A DNA stretch of 32,281 nucleotides from a virus (taxonomy: Duplodnaviria > Heunggongvirae > Uroviricota > Caudoviricetes): the IMG/VR virus record IMGVR_UViG_2547132488_000023, positions 1 through 32,281 of that record, one strand, 5' to 3'. Below, one piece after another: positions 6,995-26,869 of this stretch (its first letter is position 1; every line of letters begins with the position of its first letter). The notes beneath the pieces were generated by a model. That model was not told where the DNA came from and searched no databases. It saw nothing but the letters and a program-made list of their open reading frames with translations. The position numbers and the translations under genes were made by a program.

Positions 6995-8050
6995 TTAATT
7001 TTTAAATATGGATTGTATGTATTCTATAGTGCTATCTTTAGCTCTGATGTCTTTTAAAGTGTTATTTATGAAATCTATTATTCTGTCATTACTTAATAGT
7101 GGCGATAACGCATAACATGTTGTTGTGAATGTCATGACGTCACTAAAGCTTAGTGAAACACCTTTTGTCGCAGCGTTCTCAATCGCAATAGACTCATCAA
7201 TATCTAAGTTTGTTGCTCTTGGCCCTTTAAGGAAGATAACTTTTGAAATCCCGGATGCAGATGCTTTTGAAACGGCGTGATTAACATCTTGATAATTAAA
7301 TGGTTTGTCTTTCACTTCTATAGAAAGGAAAACTATATCATCATGATATACATCTATGTCCAGTATCTCTTTTGAGGAGCTACCGGCCTGATTGACGGGA
7401 TGTGCTTTTATTATCCATCCTCTTTGTTCACCTAATAAGTGTAGCGAAATTGCGGCAGCAATCGCGCATGTTTCTCCATCACAAGGATGAGATATAATAT
7501 TATAAATAATCTTATGGAAATCAAAATTAATTGAGTTCGGCGTTATAACTCTATTGGTTCGCTGTAGGGTAAAATATAATGCAATAACAAGCATTTCATA
7601 AGCTAAGGTTTGGGTTGTTGCTGCATGTAATATATCAATTGAAAGTTGTTGTAAAACCTTATCATTTCCTCTGCGCACAGGGTTATCAGAGGAGTGGAGC
7701 ATGTAACGAGCTGGTTTATTTAGAAATGGCTCATTTGATGCGCCTAACTTACCCTCTAAAAATGGGCCTTCTACTTTGCCTACTATTACCGAATGACATA
7801 AACTTCTTGCATCATAGGCTCCGTCTACGGGGGCATTAGCTTGTAAAGCCAGAGGGTTTACTCTAGGGTCTGTTGCTTTTGCAAGTAAACCAGTAATAAG
7901 TATATATCTGTATGTAAGGTGGGTGCCTAAAATTACATTTTGAATGGAGACCCATTGATTATTTGTTTTGTAATCAGTTAATTTTTTTGCATCGTTGATT
8001 GCATTTATAATTACATTATAGGCTTGCTCATGATTTACTAATACTTTCAT
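6995..8050 (-). CDS. Putative type II restriction endonuclease (family not recognised) of an R-M cassette
   Basis: 351 aa; start overlaps the last codons of the upstream HTH controller gene; divergent from a C5-MTase; candidate PD-(D/E)xK-like segment ILDIDVYHDDIVFLSIEVKDK; markedly AT-rich. Confidence 0.5.
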   Translation of the reverse strand: MKVLVNHEQAYNVIINAINDAKKLTDYKTNNQWVSIQNVILGTHLTYRYILITGLLAKATDPRVNPLALQANAPVDGAYDARSLCHSVIVGKVEGPFLEGKLGASNEPFLNKPARYMLHSSDNPVRRGNDKVLQQLSIDILHAATTQTLAYEMLVIALYFTLQRTNRVITPNSINFDFHKIIYNIISHPCDGETCAIAAAISLHLLGEQRGWIIKAHPVNQAGSSSKEILDIDVYHDDIVFLSIEVKDKPFNYQDVNHAVSKASASGISKVIFLKGPRATNLDIDESIAIENAATKGVSLSFSDVMTFTTTCYALSPLLSNDRIIDFINNTLKDIRAKDSTIEYIQSIFKN

Positions 8051-8342
8051 AGGTGTCCTTTAGTAAGATATCCATTGGTAGACCTAATCGGCTTGCAACC
8101 ACCTCTAATAATTCAAATAGTTCTAAAGCATCTAATCGCCTTTCAAAGCTTTCGATTTTAGATATATCTGATTGTGATAATCCTAGAAAAATGGCCAATT
8201 CTGACTGCGAAAGAGAAGCTTCTTTGCGTAGTTTGGTGAGAAGCTGGACTAGGCACCTGTATCTATGATCATGTATAGTTGGTTGTCGTTTTGCCATGTG
8301 GTTTAGAAGGTGATTGATTGTGTGTCGATCCTTACCTATCAT
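8028..8342 (-). CDS. Controller (C-protein-like) XRE-family HTH regulator of the R-M cassette; possible alternative start at 8297 (89 aa)
   Basis: 104-aa ORF with HTH SLSQSELAIFLGLSQSDISKIESFERR; immediately upstream of and overlapping the putative endonuclease gene, divergent from the MTase, as in PvuII-type C-controlled systems. Confidence 0.65.
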   Translation of the reverse strand: MIGKDRHTINHLLNHMAKRQPTIHDHRYRCLVQLLTKLRKEASLSQSELAIFLGLSQSDISKIESFERRLDALELFELLEVVASRLGLPMDILLKDTYESISKS

Positions 8343-9511
8343 TGGTTTTATTCCAAAATCGAATAATTGGTGCTAAAGAAGTGAACAAAATTTCAGCGGT
8401 GAGCTTATTTACTGGGGCAGGAGGGATGGATGTCGGTTTCTCTAATGCCGGGTTCCGAACAGTTTGGGCCAATGATATAGATAAGGATGCATGTGATACA
8501 TTTAAGCTTAATCATGAATCACCTGTTTTTTGTGGTGATATTGATGAGATGCTAAGTGAATTGTCTGGGCTGAAAAATATAGGTTGTGTTTTTGGTGGGC
8601 CTCCATGCCAAGGATTTTCTGTGGCAGGGAAAATGGACGCTCATGATCCACGTAGTAAGCTGGTTATGTCATTCATGCGGGCGGTGGATATAATTCAACC
8701 AGAATGCTTTGTTATGGAGAATGTTAAGGCTTTAGCACAGTTGTCCAAATTTGAACCAGTTAGGTGTGAACTGTTTAAGATGGCTGAAAAGTCAGGCTAT
8801 CGTTCAGCCTTGCTGGTGCTGAATTCTAAAGATTTTGGCGTTCCTCAGAATAGGGAACGTATGTTTTTTATAGGGTTTCGTTCCGAAAATGATGTGAAAC
8901 AAGTTGAGGTGGCGATAAAAAAATACCAATATCTTTCGCCCACAGTTGGTGAGATTATTCGGCCTTTAGGGCGAGCGGGTAATCCAAACAATTCAAGAGT
9001 CTGTAATGCAAGGATTACAAATGCTGCTAAGCCAGTATTACGGAAGTCACCTTACGCGGGAATGATGTTTAACGGGCAGGGAAGACCAATTAACCCGAAT
9101 GGGTATGCTTCAACTATAGCTGCTTCTATGGGGGGGAATAGGACACCAATTATTGATGAAGAACACCTTTATGATGGCTCAACAAGTTATGTTGAGACTT
9201 ATCATAATCATCTAATGAATGGTGGTGAGCCAAAAGATATGCACGATGTACCTAGTCGTTTACGTCGACTAACGATAGATGAGGCTCTTTTGATTCAAAC
9301 ATTCCCGAGTAATTATGTCTTTGTGGGGAAAAATTCGTCAATTTGGCGTCAGATAGGGAATGCTGTGCCTTGTAAATTGGCGCAGGCTGTTGCTGCAGGG
9401 GTTTTGGATGTCCTTACTGGAAAAACTATTAATGTTCAAAAGAGTCAAACAGAGTTGAGTTTGAATTCGAAAAACGGATCACATTTTCAAACCGATGGAT
9501 GCAGAATTTAA
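8318..9511 (+). CDS. DNA (cytosine-5) methyltransferase (Dcm-like); true start may be the in-frame GTG near 8381
   Basis: Motif I FTGAGGMDVGF, motif IV GGPPCQGFSVAGK, motif VI ENVKAL, motif VIII QNRERMFFIGF, motif X GNAVP; variable region between VIII and IX. Confidence 0.9.
   Translation: MCVDPYLSLVLFQNRIIGAKEVNKISAVSLFTGAGGMDVGFSNAGFRTVWANDIDKDACDTFKLNHESPVFCGDIDEMLSELSGLKNIGCVFGGPPCQGFSVAGKMDAHDPRSKLVMSFMRAVDIIQPECFVMENVKALAQLSKFEPVRCELFKMAEKSGYRSALLVLNSKDFGVPQNRERMFFIGFRSENDVKQVEVAIKKYQYLSPTVGEIIRPLGRAGNPNNSRVCNARITNAAKPVLRKSPYAGMMFNGQGRPINPNGYASTIAASMGGNRTPIIDEEHLYDGSTSYVETYHNHLMNGGEPKDMHDVPSRLRRLTIDEALLIQTFPSNYVFVGKNSSIWRQIGNAVPCKLAQAVAAGVLDVLTGKTINVQKSQTELSLNSKNGSHFQTDGCRI
8343..8380. 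promoter_or_regulatory. Divergent control region of the R-M cassette with palindrome TTATTC-N7-GAATAA (8348-8366); candidate C-box/operator
   Basis: Perfect 6-bp inverted repeat with 7-bp spacer between the divergent C-R and M genes; tandem GATT repeats just upstream at about 8310-8325. Confidence 0.35.
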
Positions 9512-21489: not shown

Positions 21490-23676
21490 ATGAGCACAAA
21501 ATTCAGAACCGTTATCACCACTGCCGGTGCAGCAAAGCTGGCAGCGGCAACCGCGCCGGGAGGGCGGAAGGTCAACATTACCACGATGGCCGTCGGGGAT
21601 GGCGGTGGTAAATTGCCTGTCCCGGATGCCGGACAGACCGGGCTTATCCATGAAGTCTGGCGACATGCGCTGAACAAAATCAGCCAGGACAAACGAAACA
21701 GTAATTATATTATCGCAGAGCTGGTTATTCCGCCGGAGGTGGGCGGTTTCTGGATGCGTGAGCTTGGCCTGTACGATGATGCGGGAACATTAATTGCCGT
21801 GGCGAACATGGCCGAAAGTTATAAGCCAGCTCTTGCCGAAGGCTCAGGGCGTTCGCAGACCTGTCGCATGGTCATCATCGTCAGCAGTGTGGCCTCAGTG
21901 GAGCTGACCATTGACACCACAACGGTGATGGCGACGCAGGATTACGTTGATGACAAAATTGCAGAGCATGAACAGTCACGACGTCACCCGGACGCCTCGC
22001 TGACCGCAAAAGGTTTTACTCAGTTAAGCAATGCGACCAACAGCACGTCTGAAACACTGGCCGCAACGCCGAAAGCGGTAAAGACCGCCTATGACCTTGC
22101 TAACGGGAAATACACTGCACAGGACGCCACCACCGCGCGAAAAGGCCTTGTTCAGCTCAGTAGTGCGACTAACAGCACGTCTGAGACGCTCGCCGCAACG
22201 CCAAAAGCAGTAAAGACAGCATATGACCTTGCTAACGGGAAATACACTGCACAGGACGCCACCACAGCGCGAAAAGGGCTTGCTCAGCTCAGTAGCGCCA
22301 CCAACAGCGATTCTGAAACGCTGGCTGCAACACCAAAAGCGGTGAAGTCTGCCTATGACAATGCTGAAAAACGTCTTCAGAAAGATCAGAACGGTGCAGA
22401 TATTCCGGGAAAGGATACTTTCACGAAAAATATCGGTGCCTGTCGTGCTTATAGCGGCGCTTTGAGCACTGAAGCCGGAAACTGGACAACCGCTCAGTTT
22501 ATTGAATGGCTGGATTCCCGTGGTGCATTTAATCATCCGTACTGGATGTGCAAAGGCTCCTGGTCATATGCAAATAACAAAATCATTACGGATACCGGAT
22601 GTGGTGATATCCACCTGGCTGGTTGTGTCGTCGAGGTCATGGGAACAAAATCTGCAATCACTATCCGAGTGACCACGCCGACAACATCAAGCGGTGGCGG
22701 TACAACCAGTGCGCAATTCACTTACATTAATCATGGGGACGGCTACTCCCCCGGCTGGCGTCGTGACTGGAATCGTCAGGGCGACGCAATGACCGGAACG
22801 ATTAATCAGGATGGCGGAAGCCAGAATGCCTATATGTCTACGGCCTTATGTTCAGGCACCAGAGGCGGCAAAAAATATCTCAGAAAGTTTCGTGGTGGAG
22901 AAGGAGACACTATCTGGCATGAAACAGTACAGGGCGGGGTAGTTCGCTGGGCGACTGGTAATACTGATGCTCAGGAAGAATTATCACTCAGCTCCGCTTA
23001 TGGTCTCCGTTCAAGAGGTGAGATTACATCACTCAGTGCTAATGGTCTGCGCATTGCTTATGGCAATTATGGATTCTTTATCAGGAATGATGGCGGCAGC
23101 ACATATTTAATGCTGACGGCCTCTGGCGATAAATTTGGGACATGGAACGGTTTAAGGCCGCTGACTATCAATAACGCTAATGGCGGAGTGTCAATGGGGC
23201 ATGGCCTGAGTGTTACTGGTGATATTGCCTCAAGTACCAAAGTACGTGCCGGTAGCGGGAAAAAATTCACGGTCAGCAGCAGCAATACATCCACGAAGGA
23301 AGCCGCATTCAATTTGTGGGGAAACTCAAGTCGTCCGGTGGTGGCTGAGTTAGGTGATGATGCAGGCTGGCATTTTTACAGTCAGAGAAATACAGATAAC
23401 AGCATCACTTTTGCTGTTAACGGGCAGGTATCACCATCTAACTATGGCAACTTTGATTCACGCTATGTCCGGGATATCCGGCTTGGTGGTGCTGCCACAT
23501 ACAAACCTGCGAACAATGGTATGACATGGACACATCAGGCACCGTCCGGGTGTGTATATTCCGGCATTATTGTTCAGGATACCGGCTCAAACTCTGCCGA
23601 TAACATTGGTGGCGTATATTACAGACCGGTGCAGAAATACATTAACGGGACTTGGTATAACGTGGCGCAGGTATAA
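21490..23676 (+). CDS. H: Tail fiber protein H
   Basis: 728 aa; conserved N-terminal fiber domain, internal 44-aa tandem repeats, divergent C-terminal region; followed by tail fiber assembly gene. Confidence 0.88.
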   Translation: MSTKFRTVITTAGAAKLAAATAPGGRKVNITTMAVGDGGGKLPVPDAGQTGLIHEVWRHALNKISQDKRNSNYIIAELVIPPEVGGFWMRELGLYDDAGTLIAVANMAESYKPALAEGSGRSQTCRMVIIVSSVASVELTIDTTTVMATQDYVDDKIAEHEQSRRHPDASLTAKGFTQLSNATNSTSETLAATPKAVKTAYDLANGKYTAQDATTARKGLVQLSSATNSTSETLAATPKAVKTAYDLANGKYTAQDATTARKGLAQLSSATNSDSETLAATPKAVKSAYDNAEKRLQKDQNGADIPGKDTFTKNIGACRAYSGALSTEAGNWTTAQFIEWLDSRGAFNHPYWMCKGSWSYANNKIITDTGCGDIHLAGCVVEVMGTKSAITIRVTTPTTSSGGGTTSAQFTYINHGDGYSPGWRRDWNRQGDAMTGTINQDGGSQNAYMSTALCSGTRGGKKYLRKFRGGEGDTIWHETVQGGVVRWATGNTDAQEELSLSSAYGLRSRGEITSLSANGLRIAYGNYGFFIRNDGGSTYLMLTASGDKFGTWNGLRPLTINNANGGVSMGHGLSVTGDIASSTKVRAGSGKKFTVSSSNTSTKEAAFNLWGNSSRPVVAELGDDAGWHFYSQRNTDNSITFAVNGQVSPSNYGNFDSRYVRDIRLGGAATYKPANNGMTWTHQAPSGCVYSGIIVQDTGSNSADNIGGVYYRPVQKYINGTWYNVAQV
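22008..22365 (+). repeat. Tandem 132-bp (44-codon) repeats inside tail fiber gene H, about 2.7 copies
   Basis: Repeat units starting at 22008, 22141 and 22273; encoded peptide KG(F/L)xQLS(N/S)ATNS(T/D)SETLAATPKAVK(T/S)AYD(L/N)A. Confidence 0.85.
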
Positions 23677-23679
23677 TTT

Positions 23680-24207
23680 ATGCAGCATTTGATAAATATA
23701 ACGGCAGGTAATCCAAAAACGGTTGAACAATATCAATTGACAAAAGACTTTGATGTTGTCTGGTTTTTTTCAGAAGATGGTAAGAACTGGTACGAAGAAC
23801 AAAAGTATTTTGCTGATGACACGCTAAAAATAGCGTACGACAAAGATAATATCATCCGCTATGTGGAAAAGGATGTGACAGCTATCAGACCGGATGGATT
23901 AAGTGTTGTTGAAGTGGCGGATATTACTGCTAACCGACGGGCGGACATTTCAGGGAACTGGATGTTTAAGGACGGCAAAGTGATTAAACGCATTTATACG
24001 GCAGAGGAATTGCAGCAGCAGGCAGAAAACCGGAAAGCCAGACTTCTTGCAGATGCTGAATCCGTGATTTTGCCGCTGGATCGCGCTGTCAGACTGAACA
24101 TGGCAACAGATGAGGAGCGTAGCCGACTGGATGCATGGGAGCGTTACAGCGTTCTGGTCAGTCGTGTGGATCCTGCAAATCCTGAATGGCCGGAAATGCC
24201 GCAATAA
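23680..24207 (+). CDS. G: Tail fiber assembly chaperone G
   Basis: 175 aa immediately after H. Confidence 0.8.
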
Positions 24208-24242
24208 GTTGTATGAGCTCTGGTGTGAGCTTACATATCTAT

Positions 24243-24282
24243 GGCACAGAGTAAAGACTAATCTGACAGTCCGCTCTGTGCC
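24243..24282. terminator. Hairpin (GGCACAGAG / CTCTGTGCC, 22-nt loop) in the convergent gap after G
   Basis: 9-bp perfect inverted repeat 24243-24251 / 24274-24282; no clean U-tract, so terminator function is tentative. Confidence 0.3.
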
Positions 24283-24411
24283 AAAAACGGACATGTCAAA
24301 GCGCAGAGTGAATGGCTAAGTCTAGCTCATTAGAAATGTTCGCTTCATGAAAATGGCTGCAGCAAGGATCTATCTCACTGCGGCCTCTTTACAATAACGA
24401 AATTTTGCGAG

Positions 24412-25167
24412 CTATTCCTTGGCCTCTTTATTTTTCTCGCCATCGCCAATGTAAAGAAGATAATCGTTTAAGGATATCCTTCCGGAGGGGCCGGTCCATG
24501 TTATCCATCCGTTCTCACGAAGATTAAATAATGCTTCCATGAACTCATTATCGTTAAAAGAATGATCCTCTGAGAACAGAATGTTCATTTTTCTCAATAG
24601 TTCTTCCACTTTAATCTTTTCATATCGCCTTATCAGACTTAGTGCTTTACGACGCATTAAGATTGTAGGTACTGCTTGTGAACGAATGGTTTTTTGTATT
24701 CCACTATCAAGAACTTTTTTGATCTTACTCTCTAACTCTTTGATTTTAGTTTCATTATCTCCATTGGACTTAAGCTTTTCATCAACGATGCAAATAATTT
24801 CCTGACTAATGCTGTTCTTGAGGTTGTTTATTTTTTCTTCATTGTTGAGAATCTCATCAGAGCTTCCTGCATGGGGTTTTTTCCATATGTGCTGACGCAT
24901 ATCCGTTACCGTATCTCTCATCATAGAGAATGTATCTGAATATAACTTGTCAAATATTTTTTCCAGTCGTTCGACACTTGCCTGGATGTCTTTTGCTGCT
25001 TTAGTTGTCTCTTTAGAAGCCTCATTCGACATTTTATAAAAAACAAAAGAAAGCCAAATAGCCCCAATGGCGAGTACTAATGAGGCTATTGTGGCAATAA
25101 AACCTATTATTGTTATTGCTGTATCTAATGTACCTGCTGCATCTGTGACTACTGTTTCTGCTGCCAT
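24412..25167 (-). CDS. Membrane-anchored protein of unknown function in the Z/fun-equivalent accessory slot
   Basis: 251 aa; GAGG 5-6 nt upstream of ATG; N-terminal TM helix TAITIIGFIATIASLVLAIGAIWLSFVFY; lysine/glutamate-rich helical middle; C-terminal region with aromatic GWITWTGP motif; AT-rich; antisense to late genes. Confidence 0.7.
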   Translation of the reverse strand: MAAETVVTDAAGTLDTAITIIGFIATIASLVLAIGAIWLSFVFYKMSNEASKETTKAAKDIQASVERLEKIFDKLYSDTFSMMRDTVTDMRQHIWKKPHAGSSDEILNNEEKINNLKNSISQEIICIVDEKLKSNGDNETKIKELESKIKKVLDSGIQKTIRSQAVPTILMRRKALSLIRRYEKIKVEELLRKMNILFSEDHSFNDNEFMEALFNLRENGWITWTGPSGRISLNDYLLYIGDGEKNKEAKE

Positions 25168-25600
25168 ATATCCTCAATATTTAACCATACAGGGTAGCGT
25201 GTTTTAACCGCGGGGAAGTCGGGGTGGTGACACCCTAGCCTTACCCCGATTCCAGAGTATTTATTTATCATACCATTGAAACTATTTAATTTTATCGAAA
25301 ATTTTGTCAGAGCGTGACTGAAAAGTCTTCAGCACGTCAAGCATATCGTCGCCGTTCAATTAACACTGAGCCTTTTCTTAGAGGGGTGGGCTGCGCAGTT
25401 GCGAGGTTATGCCCCAGTTCCTGGTTCCTCACTACATTCTAATTAAGCCGGCCAACTAAATGTCCGCTTTTCGCTCAAAGCAGACTGTCAGATTTGATAG
25501 CGTTTGGGCTAGGTAAATTGTCAGTTGAAAAATGAGTGAGTACAAATCAGGACGGGTGGGCGAGTTGCCCGCCTTTTCTTTAATCTGTTGTTTCATCCAC

Positions 25601-25615
25601 TGACCAGTCAGGTCA
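25601..25615 (+). promoter_or_regulatory. Dyad TGACC-N5-GGTCA upstream of FI; candidate Ogr-dependent late promoter (PF) activator site
   Basis: Perfect 5-bp inverted repeat centred about 71 bp upstream of the FI ATG, consistent with an activator site near -55 of a late promoter. Confidence 0.4.
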
Positions 25616-25678
25616 AATAGCGTCTTATGCACTGCCCAACAGAAAATAGTTGCACCCATTAACCTCGGAGTTAAACGG

Positions 25679-26869
25679 ATGAGTGACTATCATCACGGCG
25701 TGCAGGTGCTGGAGATTAACGACGGCACCCGCGTCATTTCCACCGTATCCACTGCCATTGTCGGCATGGTCTGCACGGCCAGCGATGCGGATGCGGAAAC
25801 CTTCCCCCTCAATAAACCGGTGCTGATTACCAATGTGCAGAGCGCAATTGCAAAGGCCGGTAAAAAAGGCACGCTGGCGGCATCGTTGCAGGCTATCGCC
25901 GACCAGTCAAAACCGGTCACCGTTGTCGTGCGTGTGGAAGACGGCACCGGCGACGACGAGGAAACGAAACTCGCGCAGACCGTTTCCAATATCATCGGCA
26001 CCACCGACGAAAACGGCCAGTACACCGGACTGAAAGCCCTGCTGGCGGCGGAGTCGGTAACCGGTGTTAAACCGCGTATTCTCGGCGTGCCGGGACTGGA
26101 CACCAAAGAGGTGGCTGTTGCACTGGCATCAGTCTGTCAGAAGCTGCGCGCTTTCGGGTATATCAGCGCATGGGGCTGTAAAACCATTTCCGAGGTGAAA
26201 GCCTACCGCCAGAATTTCAGCCAGCGTGAGCTGATGGTCATCTGGCCGGATTTCCTCGCATGGGATACGGTCAGCAGCACCACCGCCACCGCGTATGCCA
26301 CCGCCCGTGCGCTGGGGCTGCGTGCTAAAATCGACCAGGAGCAGGGCTGGCATAAAACGCTGTCCAACGTCGGGGTAAACGGTGTTACCGGCATCAGCGC
26401 ATCTGTATTCTGGGATTTGCAGGAGTCCGGCACCGATGCTGACCTGCTGAACGAGGCAGGCGTCACAACGCTGATTCGCCGCGACGGTTTCCGCTTCTGG
26501 GGTAACCGTACCTGCTCTGATGACCCGCTGTTCCTCTTTGAAAACTACACCCGCACCGCGCAGGTGATGGCCGACACGATGGCTGAGGCGCACATGTGGG
26601 CGGTGGACAAGCCCATCACCGCAACGCTGATTCGCGACATCGTTGACGGCATCAATGCCAAATTCCGTGAGCTGAAAACAAACGGCTATATCGTGGATGC
26701 GACCTGCTGGTTCAGCGAAGAATCCAACGATGCGGAAACCCTCAAGGCCGGAAAACTGTATATCGACTACGACTATACACCGGTGCCTCCTCTTGAAAAC
26801 CTGACCCTGCGCCAGCGTATTACCGATAAATACCTGGCAAATCTGGTCACCTCGGTTAACAGCAATTAA
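25679..26869 (+). CDS. FI: Tail sheath protein FI
   Basis: 396 aa, matches P2 FI size; followed by tube gene. Confidence 0.9.
   Translation: MSDYHHGVQVLEINDGTRVISTVSTAIVGMVCTASDADAETFPLNKPVLITNVQSAIAKAGKKGTLAASLQAIADQSKPVTVVVRVEDGTGDDEETKLAQTVSNIIGTTDENGQYTGLKALLAAESVTGVKPRILGVPGLDTKEVAVALASVCQKLRAFGYISAWGCKTISEVKAYRQNFSQRELMVIWPDFLAWDTVSSTTATAYATARALGLRAKIDQEQGWHKTLSNVGVNGVTGISASVFWDLQESGTDADLLNEAGVTTLIRRDGFRFWGNRTCSDDPLFLFENYTRTAQVMADTMAEAHMWAVDKPITATLIRDIVDGINAKFRELKTNGYIVDATCWFSEESNDAETLKAGKLYIDYDYTPVPPLENLTLRQRITDKYLANLVTSVNSN

What the first reader, a model, noticed from the sequence alone, without database searches (positions are those of the whole stretch)
24208..25678. Single AT-rich antisense gene for a membrane-anchored 251-aa protein in the G/FI (Z/fun-equivalent) accessory slot
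Between tail fiber assembly gene G and sheath gene FI the compact late operon is interrupted by about 1.47 kb holding one minus-strand gene (24412-25167), 204 bp of 3' spacer and 511 bp of 5' non-coding DNA. The protein has one N-terminal transmembrane helix, a charged helical middle and a C-terminal globular region with no motif I can assign to a known family. Its base composition is visibly more AT-rich than the flanking structural genes, which points to horizontal acquisition. In P2-like phages this slot is a documented hotspot for anti-phage and superinfection-exclusion cargo, and a lone membrane protein expressed from the lysogen is the architecture expected of an abortive-infection or exclusion effector. 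I cannot place it in a named system.
Basis: partly seen in the sequence, partly recalled or inferred. Interest (0 to 1): 0.82.

Follow-up and report, generated by a model that had tools for sequence, protein, structure and literature searches.

The report
Orphan membrane-anchored winged-helix gene in P2 hotspot
A P2-like prophage carries, between two tail genes, a self-contained AT-rich cassette encoding a membrane-anchored protein of an unnamed but very widespread family; many kinds of phages and plasmids carry single copies of this gene, which makes it a good but untested candidate for a new anti-phage or exclusion gene.

Summary
One minus-strand gene (24412-25167, 251 aa, 37% GC against 52% for the window) sits alone between tail-fibre assembly gene G and sheath gene FI. 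This is the documented Z/fun accessory hotspot of P2-like phages.

Only about 1.17 kb (24293-25459) is cargo. The rest of the "non-coding" DNA is conserved P2 backbone: two inverted-repeat arms, a terminator and the late promoter PF.

The protein matches no Pfam, NCBIfam or PADLOC model, no solved structure, and not Fun(Z). It belongs to phrog_36054 (function unknown) and to a family of about 480 clusters spread across many bacterial phyla and Methanoregula.

Its architecture:
- a short outside tail;
- one TM helix;
- a near-invariant amphipathic juxtamembrane helix (dN/dS 0.02-0.04);
- a variable helical region and a C-terminal winged-helix domain (dN/dS about 0.25), all predicted to be cytoplasmic.

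It is always a solo gene. It has been captured by P2-like, lambdoid, other myoviral and filamentous prophages, by IncF plasmids and by chromosomal islets, usually antisense to lytic operons.

My best reading (about 0.35) is a single-protein sensor-effector immunity or abortive module. A broader role in phage-phage conflict is about 0.55. No phenotype is shown. Interest is moderate.

The parts
23680..24207 (+). Tail fibre assembly gene G (left flank of the slot)
   Evidence: ORF; annotated GpG in phage 9W and P2.
24208..24292 (.). Conserved P2 backbone spacer after G. It ends at the left junction of the variable cargo.
   Evidence: Conserved in P2, P2-EC31 and the window up to ...GTGCCAAAAACGGAC, then divergent. 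Many E. coli genomes match only query 1-87.
24260..24294 (.). Left inverted-repeat arm (AATCTGACAGTCCGCTCTGTGCCAAAAACGGACAT)
   Evidence: 35-nt arms, 86% complementary. It corresponds to the 'left inverted repeat' annotated in AJ512677. The core is retained at the cassette end in lambdoid, C. koseri and S. oryzae contexts.
24293..25459 (-). Cassette-specific cargo DNA (39.4% GC): terminator, gene, 5' UTR and promoter region
   Evidence: Junctions. GC. The same unit (24269-25486) is 99.1% identical in a lambdoid prophage.
24347..24385 (-). Intrinsic-terminator-like hairpin (GGCCGCAGUGAG...CUUGCUGCAGCC) plus AUUUUCAU tail, downstream of the cargo gene
   Evidence: RNA fold of 24295-24425(-): -39.6 kcal/mol, z = -2.89, 1 of 200 shuffles as stable. 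Conserved in diverged cassettes.
24412..25167 (-). Cargo gene, 251 aa. Residues 1-16: outside tail. 17-44: TM helix. 45-95: near-invariant amphipathic helix. 96-164: variable helices. About 165-240: winged helix.
25171..25175 (-). Shine-Dalgarno GAGGA, 3 nt upstream of the ATG
   Evidence: Read from the sequence. TTGAGGATATATG is invariant in diverged cassettes.
25267..25275 (-). Candidate extended -10 promoter element, TGGTATGAT (5' UTR of about 90 nt)
   Evidence: Conserved as TGnTATnAT in window, C. koseri, S. oryzae and Buttiauxella cassettes. Inference; the TSS was not measured.
25281..25310 (-). Alternative sigma-70-like site, CTGACA-18-AATAGT (9 of 12)
   Evidence: The number of such sites in the region is no higher than in shuffles, so this is weak.
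25460..25494 (.). Right inverted-repeat arm (ATGTCCGCTTTTCGCTCAAAGCAGACTGTCAGATT). P2 backbone resumes here.
   Evidence: 'Right inverted repeat' of AJ512677. Alignment with P2 and P2-EC31. Most E. coli hits start at query 1251-1252.
25553..25584 (+). Conserved plus-strand terminator-like hairpin (GGGTGGGCGAGTTGCCCGCC + TTTTCTTTA) ahead of PF
   Evidence: conserved in P2 and P2-EC31.
25583..25611 (+). Position equivalent to the activator (Ogr) binding site of late promoter PF
   Evidence: P2 annotation mapped through alignment A3.
25653..25655 (+). Position equivalent to the transcription start of the F operon
   Evidence: P2 annotation mapped through alignment A3.
25679..26869 (+). Tail sheath gene FI (right flank)
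   Evidence: annotated GpFI in 9W and P2.

Best explanation
The cassette is an autonomous moron: its own promoter, one gene and its own terminator. It was inserted antisense into the P2 late region at the Z/fun hotspot.

Its product is anchored in the inner membrane by one N-terminal helix. A few residues lie outside and everything else is in the cytoplasm.

I propose a single-protein sensor-effector immunity module. The variable coiled-coil/winged-helix C-terminus recognises a component of an invading phage, either a protein or a nucleic acid. The near-invariant TM helix plus juxtamembrane amphipathic helix is the output. It self-associates through a stripe of small residues. It then perturbs the membrane, or a universally conserved membrane-proximal process, so that the infection aborts or is excluded.

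Shown here:
- gene, boundaries and composition;
- predicted topology;
- the conservation asymmetry between the two halves;
- the winged-helix fold;
- solo status;
- carriage by many kinds of mobile element.

Inferred: expression in the lysogen, oligomerisation, which half is the sensor and which the effector, and the anti-phage role itself.
For: Location and orientation match the known exclusion gene fun(Z) and a locus that yielded three validated defence systems.

The cassette is self-contained. It has a terminator hairpin with z=-2.9. It has a conserved extended -10 and SD. Its GC is 37% against 52-57%.

The same gene is carried singly in many elements:
- a lambdoid early region;
- between terS and terL of three Serratia prophages;
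- prophage ends in C. koseri;
- four filamentous prophages;
- IncF plasmids next to a transposase;
- a primase island.
In most of the tailed-prophage and filamentous contexts it lies antisense to, or divergent from, the neighbouring phage genes.

There is no conserved partner gene in 44 species loci, nor among ORFs of 25 aa or more in 55 loci.

Topology: 248 of 252 members have more K/R after the TM helix than in the N tail, whose median length is 6 aa.

Residues 21-95 are nearly invariant across phyla, with dN/dS 0.02-0.04. The C-terminal half has dN/dS 0.22-0.26. This is the pattern expected for a fixed effector joined to a fast-evolving recognition module.

Small residues recur at positions 22, 25/26, 29, 33, 36 and 40 with period 3.5.

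Some members add an OST-HTH/LOTUS domain.

Some neighbours in other species are defence-type genes: Old, AriA/GajA-like, PD-T4-6 and BstA.

The prophage's other hotspot carries a type II R-M system.
Against: No phenotype exists, and there is no homology to any characterised defence or exclusion protein.

Guilt by location is weak. P2 hotspots also carry non-defence cargo such as partition systems and toxins (PMC9122126).

In distant phyla most neighbours are ordinary housekeeping genes. I could not count defence neighbours per locus.

A single TM helix is a minimal effector. Pore or lesion formation is pure inference: the monomer model has pTM 0.32 and no multimer could be modelled.

The recognition helix and wing are not basic (net -3 and 0 in this protein), so DNA sensing is not favoured and the ligand is unknown.

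The strong conservation of residues 45-95 could equally reflect binding to a conserved host partner for a non-immune purpose.
Confidence: 0.35

Rival explanations
1. Superinfection exclusion at the inner membrane. The protein sits in the membrane of the lysogen and blocks genome entry of incoming phages, without killing the cell. It could do so through its TM helix at the entry channel, or by its cytoplasmic domain capturing the entering DNA end or pilot proteins.
For: It occupies the same slot as fun(Z), which blocks T5. It is membrane-anchored, a lone gene, and oriented like a lysogen-expressed gene. Carriage by many temperate phages fits phage-phage competition.
Against: Almost nothing is exposed outside the membrane (median N tail 6 aa). 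The TM and juxtamembrane region is nearly invariant from enterobacteria to Bacteroidota, Actinobacteria and Methanoregula. Entry routes and membrane receptors differ across these hosts, so a receptor-specific block is hard to reconcile. There is no match to PHROG families annotated as superinfection exclusion.
Confidence: 0.2
2. A non-immune lysogenic-conversion or regulatory function. The protein would be a membrane-tethered winged-helix adaptor that binds or sequesters a conserved cytoplasmic host or phage factor. Possible roles include modulating envelope physiology, stress responses, or prophage induction and maintenance.
For: The closest winged-helix matches are protein-interaction modules: cullin WHB, RPA32 C-terminal domain and MCM WHD. 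The recognition helix is acidic. The extreme conservation of residues 45-95 suggests a conserved binding partner. Many homologues sit among housekeeping genes with no mobile-element genes within 8 kb.
Against: The distribution is patchy and rare: 44 of 185,579 species genomes hold the conserved N-terminal peptide patterns used for the scan, and 10 of 5,426 E. coli genomes hold the cassette. The gene has been captured repeatedly by unrelated mobile elements at accessory slots. Both are more typical of conflict genes than of physiological regulators. There is no conserved neighbouring operon that it could regulate.
Confidence: 0.2
3. A selfish or nearly neutral hitchhiker. The cassette would be maintained by its own mobility (an inverted-repeat-bounded unit) or by mild toxicity or addiction, with no benefit to phage or host.
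For: The 1.2-kb unit keeps the same inverted-repeat ends in at least five genomic contexts. This suggests movement as a discrete unit. It is rare in E. coli.
Against: Purifying selection is strong on the whole protein and extreme on the N-terminal domain. The family persists across phyla at 40-79% identity in that domain. It has no transposase or recombinase of its own and no antitoxin-like partner.
Confidence: 0.1
4. A structural, assembly or lysis component of the P2-like phage, for example a holin or antiholin, or a tail accessory protein.
For: It lies among tail genes and has a single TM helix, as class III holins do. There is one very weak PHROG hit to an Rz-like spanin (E=1.1).
Against: It is absent from 99% of P2-like prophages that share the flanks. 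It is antisense to the late operon and AT-rich. It is also present in filamentous prophages and plasmids, which have no tails or lysis cassette. The predicted topology is N-out/C-in. There are no holin or tail family hits.
Confidence: 0.01

Closest known systems
P2 Fun(Z) (lysogenic conversion, blocks T5) and other Z/fun-slot cargo
   Same: Same G/FI slot and same antisense orientation. It is bounded by the same inverted repeats and placed ahead of the PF promoter.
   Different: No sequence similarity (best BLASTP E=8.7). Fun(Z) is 528 aa against 251 aa here. Fun(Z) is not described as a one-TM plus winged-helix protein.
phrog_36054 (PHROGs v4, unknown function)
   Same: Full-length match, positions 1-251 of 251, E=2.8e-176. 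This is the protein's own family among sequenced phages.
   Different: The family carries no annotation. It adds only that the gene has been seen in phage genomes.
Lactococcal AbiP (single-gene abortive infection; N-terminal membrane anchor plus cytoplasmic nucleic-acid-binding domain). Recalled from memory (Domingues et al.), not fetched.
   Same: Works-like analogy only: one gene, an N-terminal TM anchor, a cytoplasmic binding domain, similar size.
   Different: No sequence was available to compare. Homology is untested and unlikely given the host range. AbiP is not known to have the conserved juxtamembrane helix.
Membrane-anchored single-protein defences such as PD-T4-3/DUF4041 (SNIPE-type), and the TM effectors of CBASS, Pycsar and retron systems
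   Same: An inner-membrane anchor joined to a cytoplasmic module. TM proteins in defence systems are generally thought to act as suicide effectors (PMC9122126).
   Different: No PADLOC model matches. There is no nuclease or enzymatic domain. There is no partner gene that could supply a signal. It has one TM helix instead of two to four.
Classical superinfection-exclusion proteins (T4 Imm, P22 SieA, HK97 gp15, lactococcal Sie2009). Properties recalled from memory.
   Same: Small prophage- or phage-encoded inner-membrane proteins acting alone.
   Different: No family match. Here the bulk of the protein is predicted to be cytoplasmic and only about 6-16 residues lie outside.
Winged-helix domains of cullin (WHB), RPA32 C-terminus, MCM WHD, and PadR/MarR regulators
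   Different: The similarity is at fold level only (6-20% identity). None of these is membrane-anchored. The recognition helix here is acidic.

Membership tests
P2 Z/fun product (Fun(Z)) | Sequence homology to P2 NP_046777 (528 aa) | tested here: not met
   BLASTP best E=8.7 over 12 residues.
P2 Z/fun hotspot cargo (positional class) | Lies between G and FI, bounded by the left and right inverted repeats, upstream of PF, and variable among P2-like phages | tested here: met
   886 E. coli genomes share the flanks; 7 have this cargo in the slot.
Moron (autonomous accessory transcription unit in a phage operon) | Own promoter and terminator, deviant base composition, absent from close relatives | tested here: met
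   Terminator z=-2.9. Conserved extended -10 and SD. GC 37% against 52-57%. Absence from relatives. Promoter activity itself was not measured.
Known anti-phage defence families (PADLOC-DB v2.0.0) | Significant match to any of 5027 models | tested here: not met
   Only PDC-M49B at E=0.42.
Any Pfam-A or NCBIfam family | Score above the curated cut-off | tested here: not met
   Best Pfam hit is MCM4_WHD, 18.6 bits against a cut-off of 24.4. Nothing is above cut-off.
phrog_36054 | Full-length profile match | tested here: met
   E=2.8e-176, positions 1-251 of 251.
Winged-helix fold (C-terminal domain) | H1-b1-H2-H3-b2-b3 topology and structural superposition on solved winged-helix domains | tested here: met
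DNA-binding wHTH transcription factor | Basic recognition helix and wing; DNA binding | tested here: inconclusive
   Net charge of H3 is -3 and of the wing 0. Family means are -0.3 and -1.0. Binding cannot be tested with these tools.
Holin / antiholin | Located in the lysis cassette, holin family match, conserved across related phages | tested here: not met
   It lies outside the lysis region and is antisense. No holin hits. It is absent from most relatives.
Toxin-antitoxin or two-gene defence system | A conserved adjacent partner gene | tested here: not met
   No neighbour family is shared across 44 species loci. No conserved small ORF in 55 loci, apart from relics among close cassettes.
Abortive-infection or superinfection-exclusion gene (functional class) | Reduces productive infection by other phages when expressed | not testable with these tools
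   This needs plating and infection assays. Only contextual evidence is available here.
Bitopic N-out/C-in inner-membrane protein | One TM segment; positive-inside charge bias | tested here: met
   One hydrophobic segment, 17-44. Mean K/R count is 0.19 in the N tail and 2.93 in the 15 residues after the TM, and 248 of 252 members show this bias. This is a prediction, not an experiment.

The most novel reading that the evidence does not exclude
The gene founds an undescribed anti-phage immunity family that works as a single protein and spans many phyla. A near-invariant one-TM plus juxtamembrane effector would be fused to a rapidly diversifying coiled-coil/winged-helix sensor. The gene would be spread as a solo gene by filamentous, P2-like and lambdoid phages, plasmids and small islets, in both bacteria and a methanogenic archaeon. 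This would make it a minimal membrane-anchored innate-immune receptor.
Probability: 0.3. Interest if true: 0.72.

Novelty: new variant of a known kind. Interest (0 to 1): 0.5.

Why it matters
If the gene protects against phages, it adds a very compact (0.75 kb), partner-free defence family to the known set. Current tools (PADLOC, Pfam, NCBIfam) miss it.

Its domain logic is unusually clean: a fixed membrane module joined to a variable winged-helix module. That would make sensor swapping and trigger mapping straightforward.

Filamentous prophages, P2-like phages, lambdoid phages and plasmids all carry it. This bears on how temperate elements compete.

The inverted-repeat-bounded cassette moves intact between unrelated prophages. 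This bears on how hotspot cargo is exchanged.

If the gene has no anti-phage role, it is simply one more uncharacterised hotspot moron.

Tried and rejected
1. Family libraries. Pfam, NCBIfam and PADLOC gave nothing above threshold. PHROGs gave only the protein's own unannotated family.
2. PDB by sequence and by profile. Only winged-helix and coiled-coil noise appeared, such as apolipoprotein A-I at E about 0.04, which I disregard as compositional.
4. Fun(Z) homology: none.
5. Conserved partner gene. None was found. The only shared 'neighbour' is an antisense shadow ORF inside the gene. Small upstream ORFs are relics; one is broken by a stop codon in S. oryzae.
6. General link to filamentous phages. 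Zot, Rep and secretin queries found nothing in the 44 species loci. The inovirus association therefore holds for four proteobacterial members only.
7. RNA elements. There is no Rfam hit. The 5' UTR fold is not better than shuffles and no covariation was found.
8. Inverted-repeat core scan of IMG/VR. It gave 97 exact hits, but only 6 are true P2-type arms and the rest are about the number I estimated by hand for chance matches.
9. Literature. No paper mentions the RefSeq accessions. The DefensePredictor supplements do not contain them or the motif. No supplements are held for PMC13586616. Nilsson et al. 2004 is not held.
10. Defence neighbours per locus. Alignment-mode scans return only aggregate numbers, so I could not count these.
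Full report
**1. The observation**

The window is a complete P2-like prophage. Gene G (23680-24207) and sheath gene FI (25679-26869) are separated by 1471 bp. The only substantial ORF in that gap is 24412-25167 on the minus strand, 251 aa. The near-identical phage 9W annotates the three genes as GpG, hypothetical protein and GpFI.

The gene is 36.9% GC (GC3 34%). FI is 57.1% GC (GC3 70%) and the whole window is 51.8%.

The ORF is a real gene:
- its ATG is preceded by GAGGA;
- it matches phrog_36054 end to end, E=2.8e-176;
- it has 351 homologues in the word-indexed search and 480 clusters at 50% identity in the exhaustive search;
- it evolves under purifying selection.

**2. Anatomy of the slot**

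Not all of the 'non-coding' DNA is cargo. Alignments with P2 and P2-EC31 show that P2 backbone runs from the G stop to about 24292 and resumes at about 25460. So do the hit boundaries in 61 phage records and 886 E. coli genomes.

The junctions coincide with a 35-nt inverted repeat at 24260-24294 and 25460-25494. These arms correspond to the 'left/right inverted repeat' features annotated in the GenBank record of the P2-EC31 Z-region.

The right-hand backbone also holds:
- a conserved plus-strand terminator hairpin at 25553-25574;
- the activator-binding site of late promoter PF, mapped from the P2 annotation to about 25583-25611;
- the PF transcription start, mapped the same way to about 25653.

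The cargo proper is 24293-25459. On the minus strand it contains:
- a conserved upstream region with an extended -10 (TGGTATGAT, 25267-25275) that survives in diverged cassettes;
- a 5' UTR of about 90 nt with no supported structure and no Rfam match;
- the gene;
- a stable terminator hairpin at 24355-24385 with a U-rich tail (z=-2.9).

It is therefore a textbook moron.

**3. The hotspot**

P2 itself carries fun(Z) here, antisense, annotated as blocking T5. The literature describes this as a second defence-enriched P2 locus that yielded three validated systems (PMC9519451). It is also described as a mixed accessory and tail-fibre hotspot (bioRxiv 10.1101/2024.10.15.618418; PMC13586616).

In 5,426 complete E. 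coli genomes, 886 share the flanks. Only 10 hold the cassette: 7 in the P2 slot and 3 elsewhere. Other occupants are annotated as DUF4145, DUF6615, Lit-family, 'lysogenic conversion protein' and similar. Only two distinct sequenced phages, P22H4 and 9W, carry this gene.

**4. The protein**

No Pfam, NCBIfam or PADLOC model reaches threshold. No solved structure is related by sequence. There is no similarity to Fun(Z). Every database copy is named 'hypothetical protein'.

The AlphaFold2 model (91-sequence alignment, mean pLDDT 71) has these elements:
- one long helix, 5-95, with the TM part at pLDDT about 95;
- two further helices, 104-133 and 139-182;
- a compact H-b-H-H-b-b domain.

That C-terminal domain is a winged helix:
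- Foldseek agrees;
- a family profile hits the archaeal RPA32 winged helix at E=0.001;
- Pfam gives a sub-threshold MCM4_WHD hit.

Its recognition helix is acidic (net -3) and the wing is neutral. This is closer to protein-binding than to DNA-binding winged helices. However, two family members append an OST-HTH/LOTUS domain, so nucleic-acid binding is not excluded.

There is one hydrophobic segment, 17-44. Across 252 family members the N tail is short (median 6 residues) and almost free of K/R (mean 0.19). The 15 residues after the TM helix carry 2.93 K/R on average, and 248 of 252 members show this bias. The predicted topology is therefore N-out/C-in, with essentially the whole protein in the cytoplasm.

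**5. The family**

Conservation is strikingly lopsided. Residues 21-95 are almost invariant (for example L75, Y76, D78-F80, M82-M83, D89-R91, H93 and W95) from Enterobacterales to Betaproteobacteria and Methanoregula. Residues 96-251 are highly variable.

Among enterobacterial copies, dN/dS is 0.02-0.04 for residues 17-95 and 0.22-0.26 for residues 96-245.

In the TM helix, small residues recur at positions 22, 25/26, 29, 33, 36 and 40 with period 3.5. The juxtamembrane helix is strongly amphipathic. This suggests tight helix-helix packing, which is an inference.

The family is rare but taxonomically very wide. The 44 species genomes with the conserved peptide patterns include:
- Alpha-, Beta-, Gamma- and Deltaproteobacteria;
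- Bacteroidota, Ignavibacteriota, Chloroflexota and Planctomycetota;
- Actinomycetota, Acidobacteriota, Armatimonadota and Bacillota;
- Campylobacterales;
- Methanoregula.

**6. Context**

The gene is always solo. No neighbouring protein family recurs across the 44 loci, and no small partner ORF recurs across 55 loci. The contexts I examined are:

| Context | Locus |
|---|---|
| P2 G/FI slot | window |
| E. coli lambdoid prophage, between a DUF977 gene and hokD, 99.1% identical cassette | L002 |
| Three different Serratia marcescens lambdoid prophages, antisense between small and large terminase genes | L017-L019 |
| Citrobacter koseri lambdoid prophage end, next to a tRNA att fragment | L065 |
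| Citrobacter koseri myovirus prophage end, next to a tRNA att fragment | L066-L068 |
| DUF927-primase/AlpA island in Serratia oryzae | L064 |
| Filamentous prophage in Alcaligenes | L006 |
| Filamentous prophage in Pectobacterium | L014 |
| Filamentous prophage in Citrobacter freundii | L071 |
| Filamentous prophage in Providencia | L077 |
| Klebsiella IncF conjugative plasmids, beside an ISNCY transposase | L079 |
| Chromosomal singleton in Limnohabitans, between efp and earP | L009 |
| Chromosomal singleton in a marine gammaproteobacterial metagenome | L074 |
| Chromosomal singleton in Methanoregula | L012 |

In most of the tailed-prophage and filamentous contexts the gene lies antisense to, or divergent from, the neighbouring phage genes.

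In distant phyla the neighbours are heterogeneous. Many are housekeeping genes. There is a sprinkling of integrases, transposases and defence-type proteins such as Old, AriA/GajA-like ATPases, PD-T4-6 and BstA. I could not turn this into a per-locus statistic.

**7. Mechanism**

The data fit best a single-protein conflict module expressed by the resident element. The fast-evolving coiled-coil/winged-helix half would recognise something from an invader. The invariant TM and juxtamembrane half would be the output.

That half is conserved across hosts with very different envelopes and entry receptors. Its target is therefore most simply the membrane itself, its own oligomer, or a universal membrane-proximal process. 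This favours an abortive or effector model (0.35) over a receptor-specific entry block (0.2).

A non-immune role as a membrane-tethered adaptor remains possible (0.2). So does a selfish hitchhiker (0.1). A structural or lysis role is excluded by the distribution. Taken together, some role in phage-phage or element-element conflict has a probability of about 0.55. None of this is shown experimentally.

**8. Comparison with known systems and novelty**

By position it is a Z/fun-slot cargo and a moron; those membership tests are met. By sequence it belongs to no characterised family; those tests were run and not met.

In how it may work, the nearest analogues are:
- single-gene membrane-anchored abortive proteins (lactococcal AbiP, recalled from memory and not tested);
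- membrane-anchored PD-T4-3/DUF4041-type proteins;
- the TM effectors of CBASS, Pycsar and retrons.

It differs from all of these. It has no enzymatic domain, no partner gene and a single TM helix. I rate it a new variant of a known kind. An uncharacterised gene in this hotspot is expected. What is new is the family's architecture, its breadth and its repeated capture by unrelated elements.

**9. Side finding**

The 1.2-kb unit keeps the same inverted-repeat cores at both ends in at least five unrelated contexts. The same repeats bound different cargo in P2 and P2-EC31. I could not determine which recombination process uses them.

**10. Verdict**

Interest is 0.5.

Noticed in passing
window 6995-9511: The prophage's other hotspot lies between replication gene A and portal gene Q, the old/tin position. 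It carries a type II restriction-modification system: REase 6995-8050(-), PADLOC REase_II E=6.8e-252; an HTH control-protein-like ORF 8028-8342(-); a C5-methyltransferase 8318-9511(+), MTase_II E=2.9e-79.
   Followed up: partly
window 24260-24294 and 25460-25494; L002 7988-8026 and 9191-9229; L065/L066/L064 cassette ends: The cargo moves as a unit of about 1.2 kb bounded by the same inverted-repeat cores in P2-like, lambdoid, myoviral and island contexts. The same repeats flank different cargo in P2 and P2-EC31. Each arm also contains a small internal hairpin. The recombination mechanism is unknown.
   Followed up: partly
L006, L014, L071, L077: Four family members sit at the accessory or regulatory ends of filamentous (inovirus) prophages in Alcaligenes, Pectobacterium, Citrobacter and Providencia. 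Two of them lie next to antitoxin-like genes (dnstrm_HI1420, Xre_MbcA_ParS_C). No Zot or Rep homologue was found in the 44 other species loci.
   Followed up: partly
L017-L019, 8001-8741: In three different Serratia marcescens prophages the homologue is inserted antisense between the small and large terminase genes. This is an unusual moron position.
   Followed up: no
P0084, P0088 (family members): Some homologues carry an extra C-terminal OST-HTH/LOTUS domain after the winged helix (41-42 bits, cut-off 23.8). This hints at nucleic-acid binding by the variable half.
   Followed up: partly
window 21490-23676 (tail fibre H), about residues 170-300: The tail fibre protein contains three tandem copies of a repeat of about 44 aa (…SSATNSTSETLAATPKAVKTAYDLANGKYTAQDATTARKGL…), visible in the translation.
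   Followed up: no
window 23550-24000: The end of H and the 5' half of G are also low in GC (0.38-0.40 against about 0.55 upstream). This is consistent with the tail-fibre and assembly-gene swapping reported for this region.
   Followed up: no
window 25282-25359 (-): A 25-aa ORF lies in the cassette's upstream region (MNGDDMLDVLKTFQSRSDKIFDKIK). It resembles the C-terminus of a 98-aa ORF upstream of the Buttiauxella homologue and a 48-aa ORF downstream of the Klebsiella plasmid copy. It is broken by a stop codon in S. oryzae and is probably a relic of a lost neighbouring gene.
   Followed up: partly
L009 8001-8681: In Limnohabitans lacus the homologue is a singleton inserted between efp and earP. 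These two genes function together (EF-P and its rhamnosyltransferase), and the neighbourhood shows no mobile-element genes.
   Followed up: no
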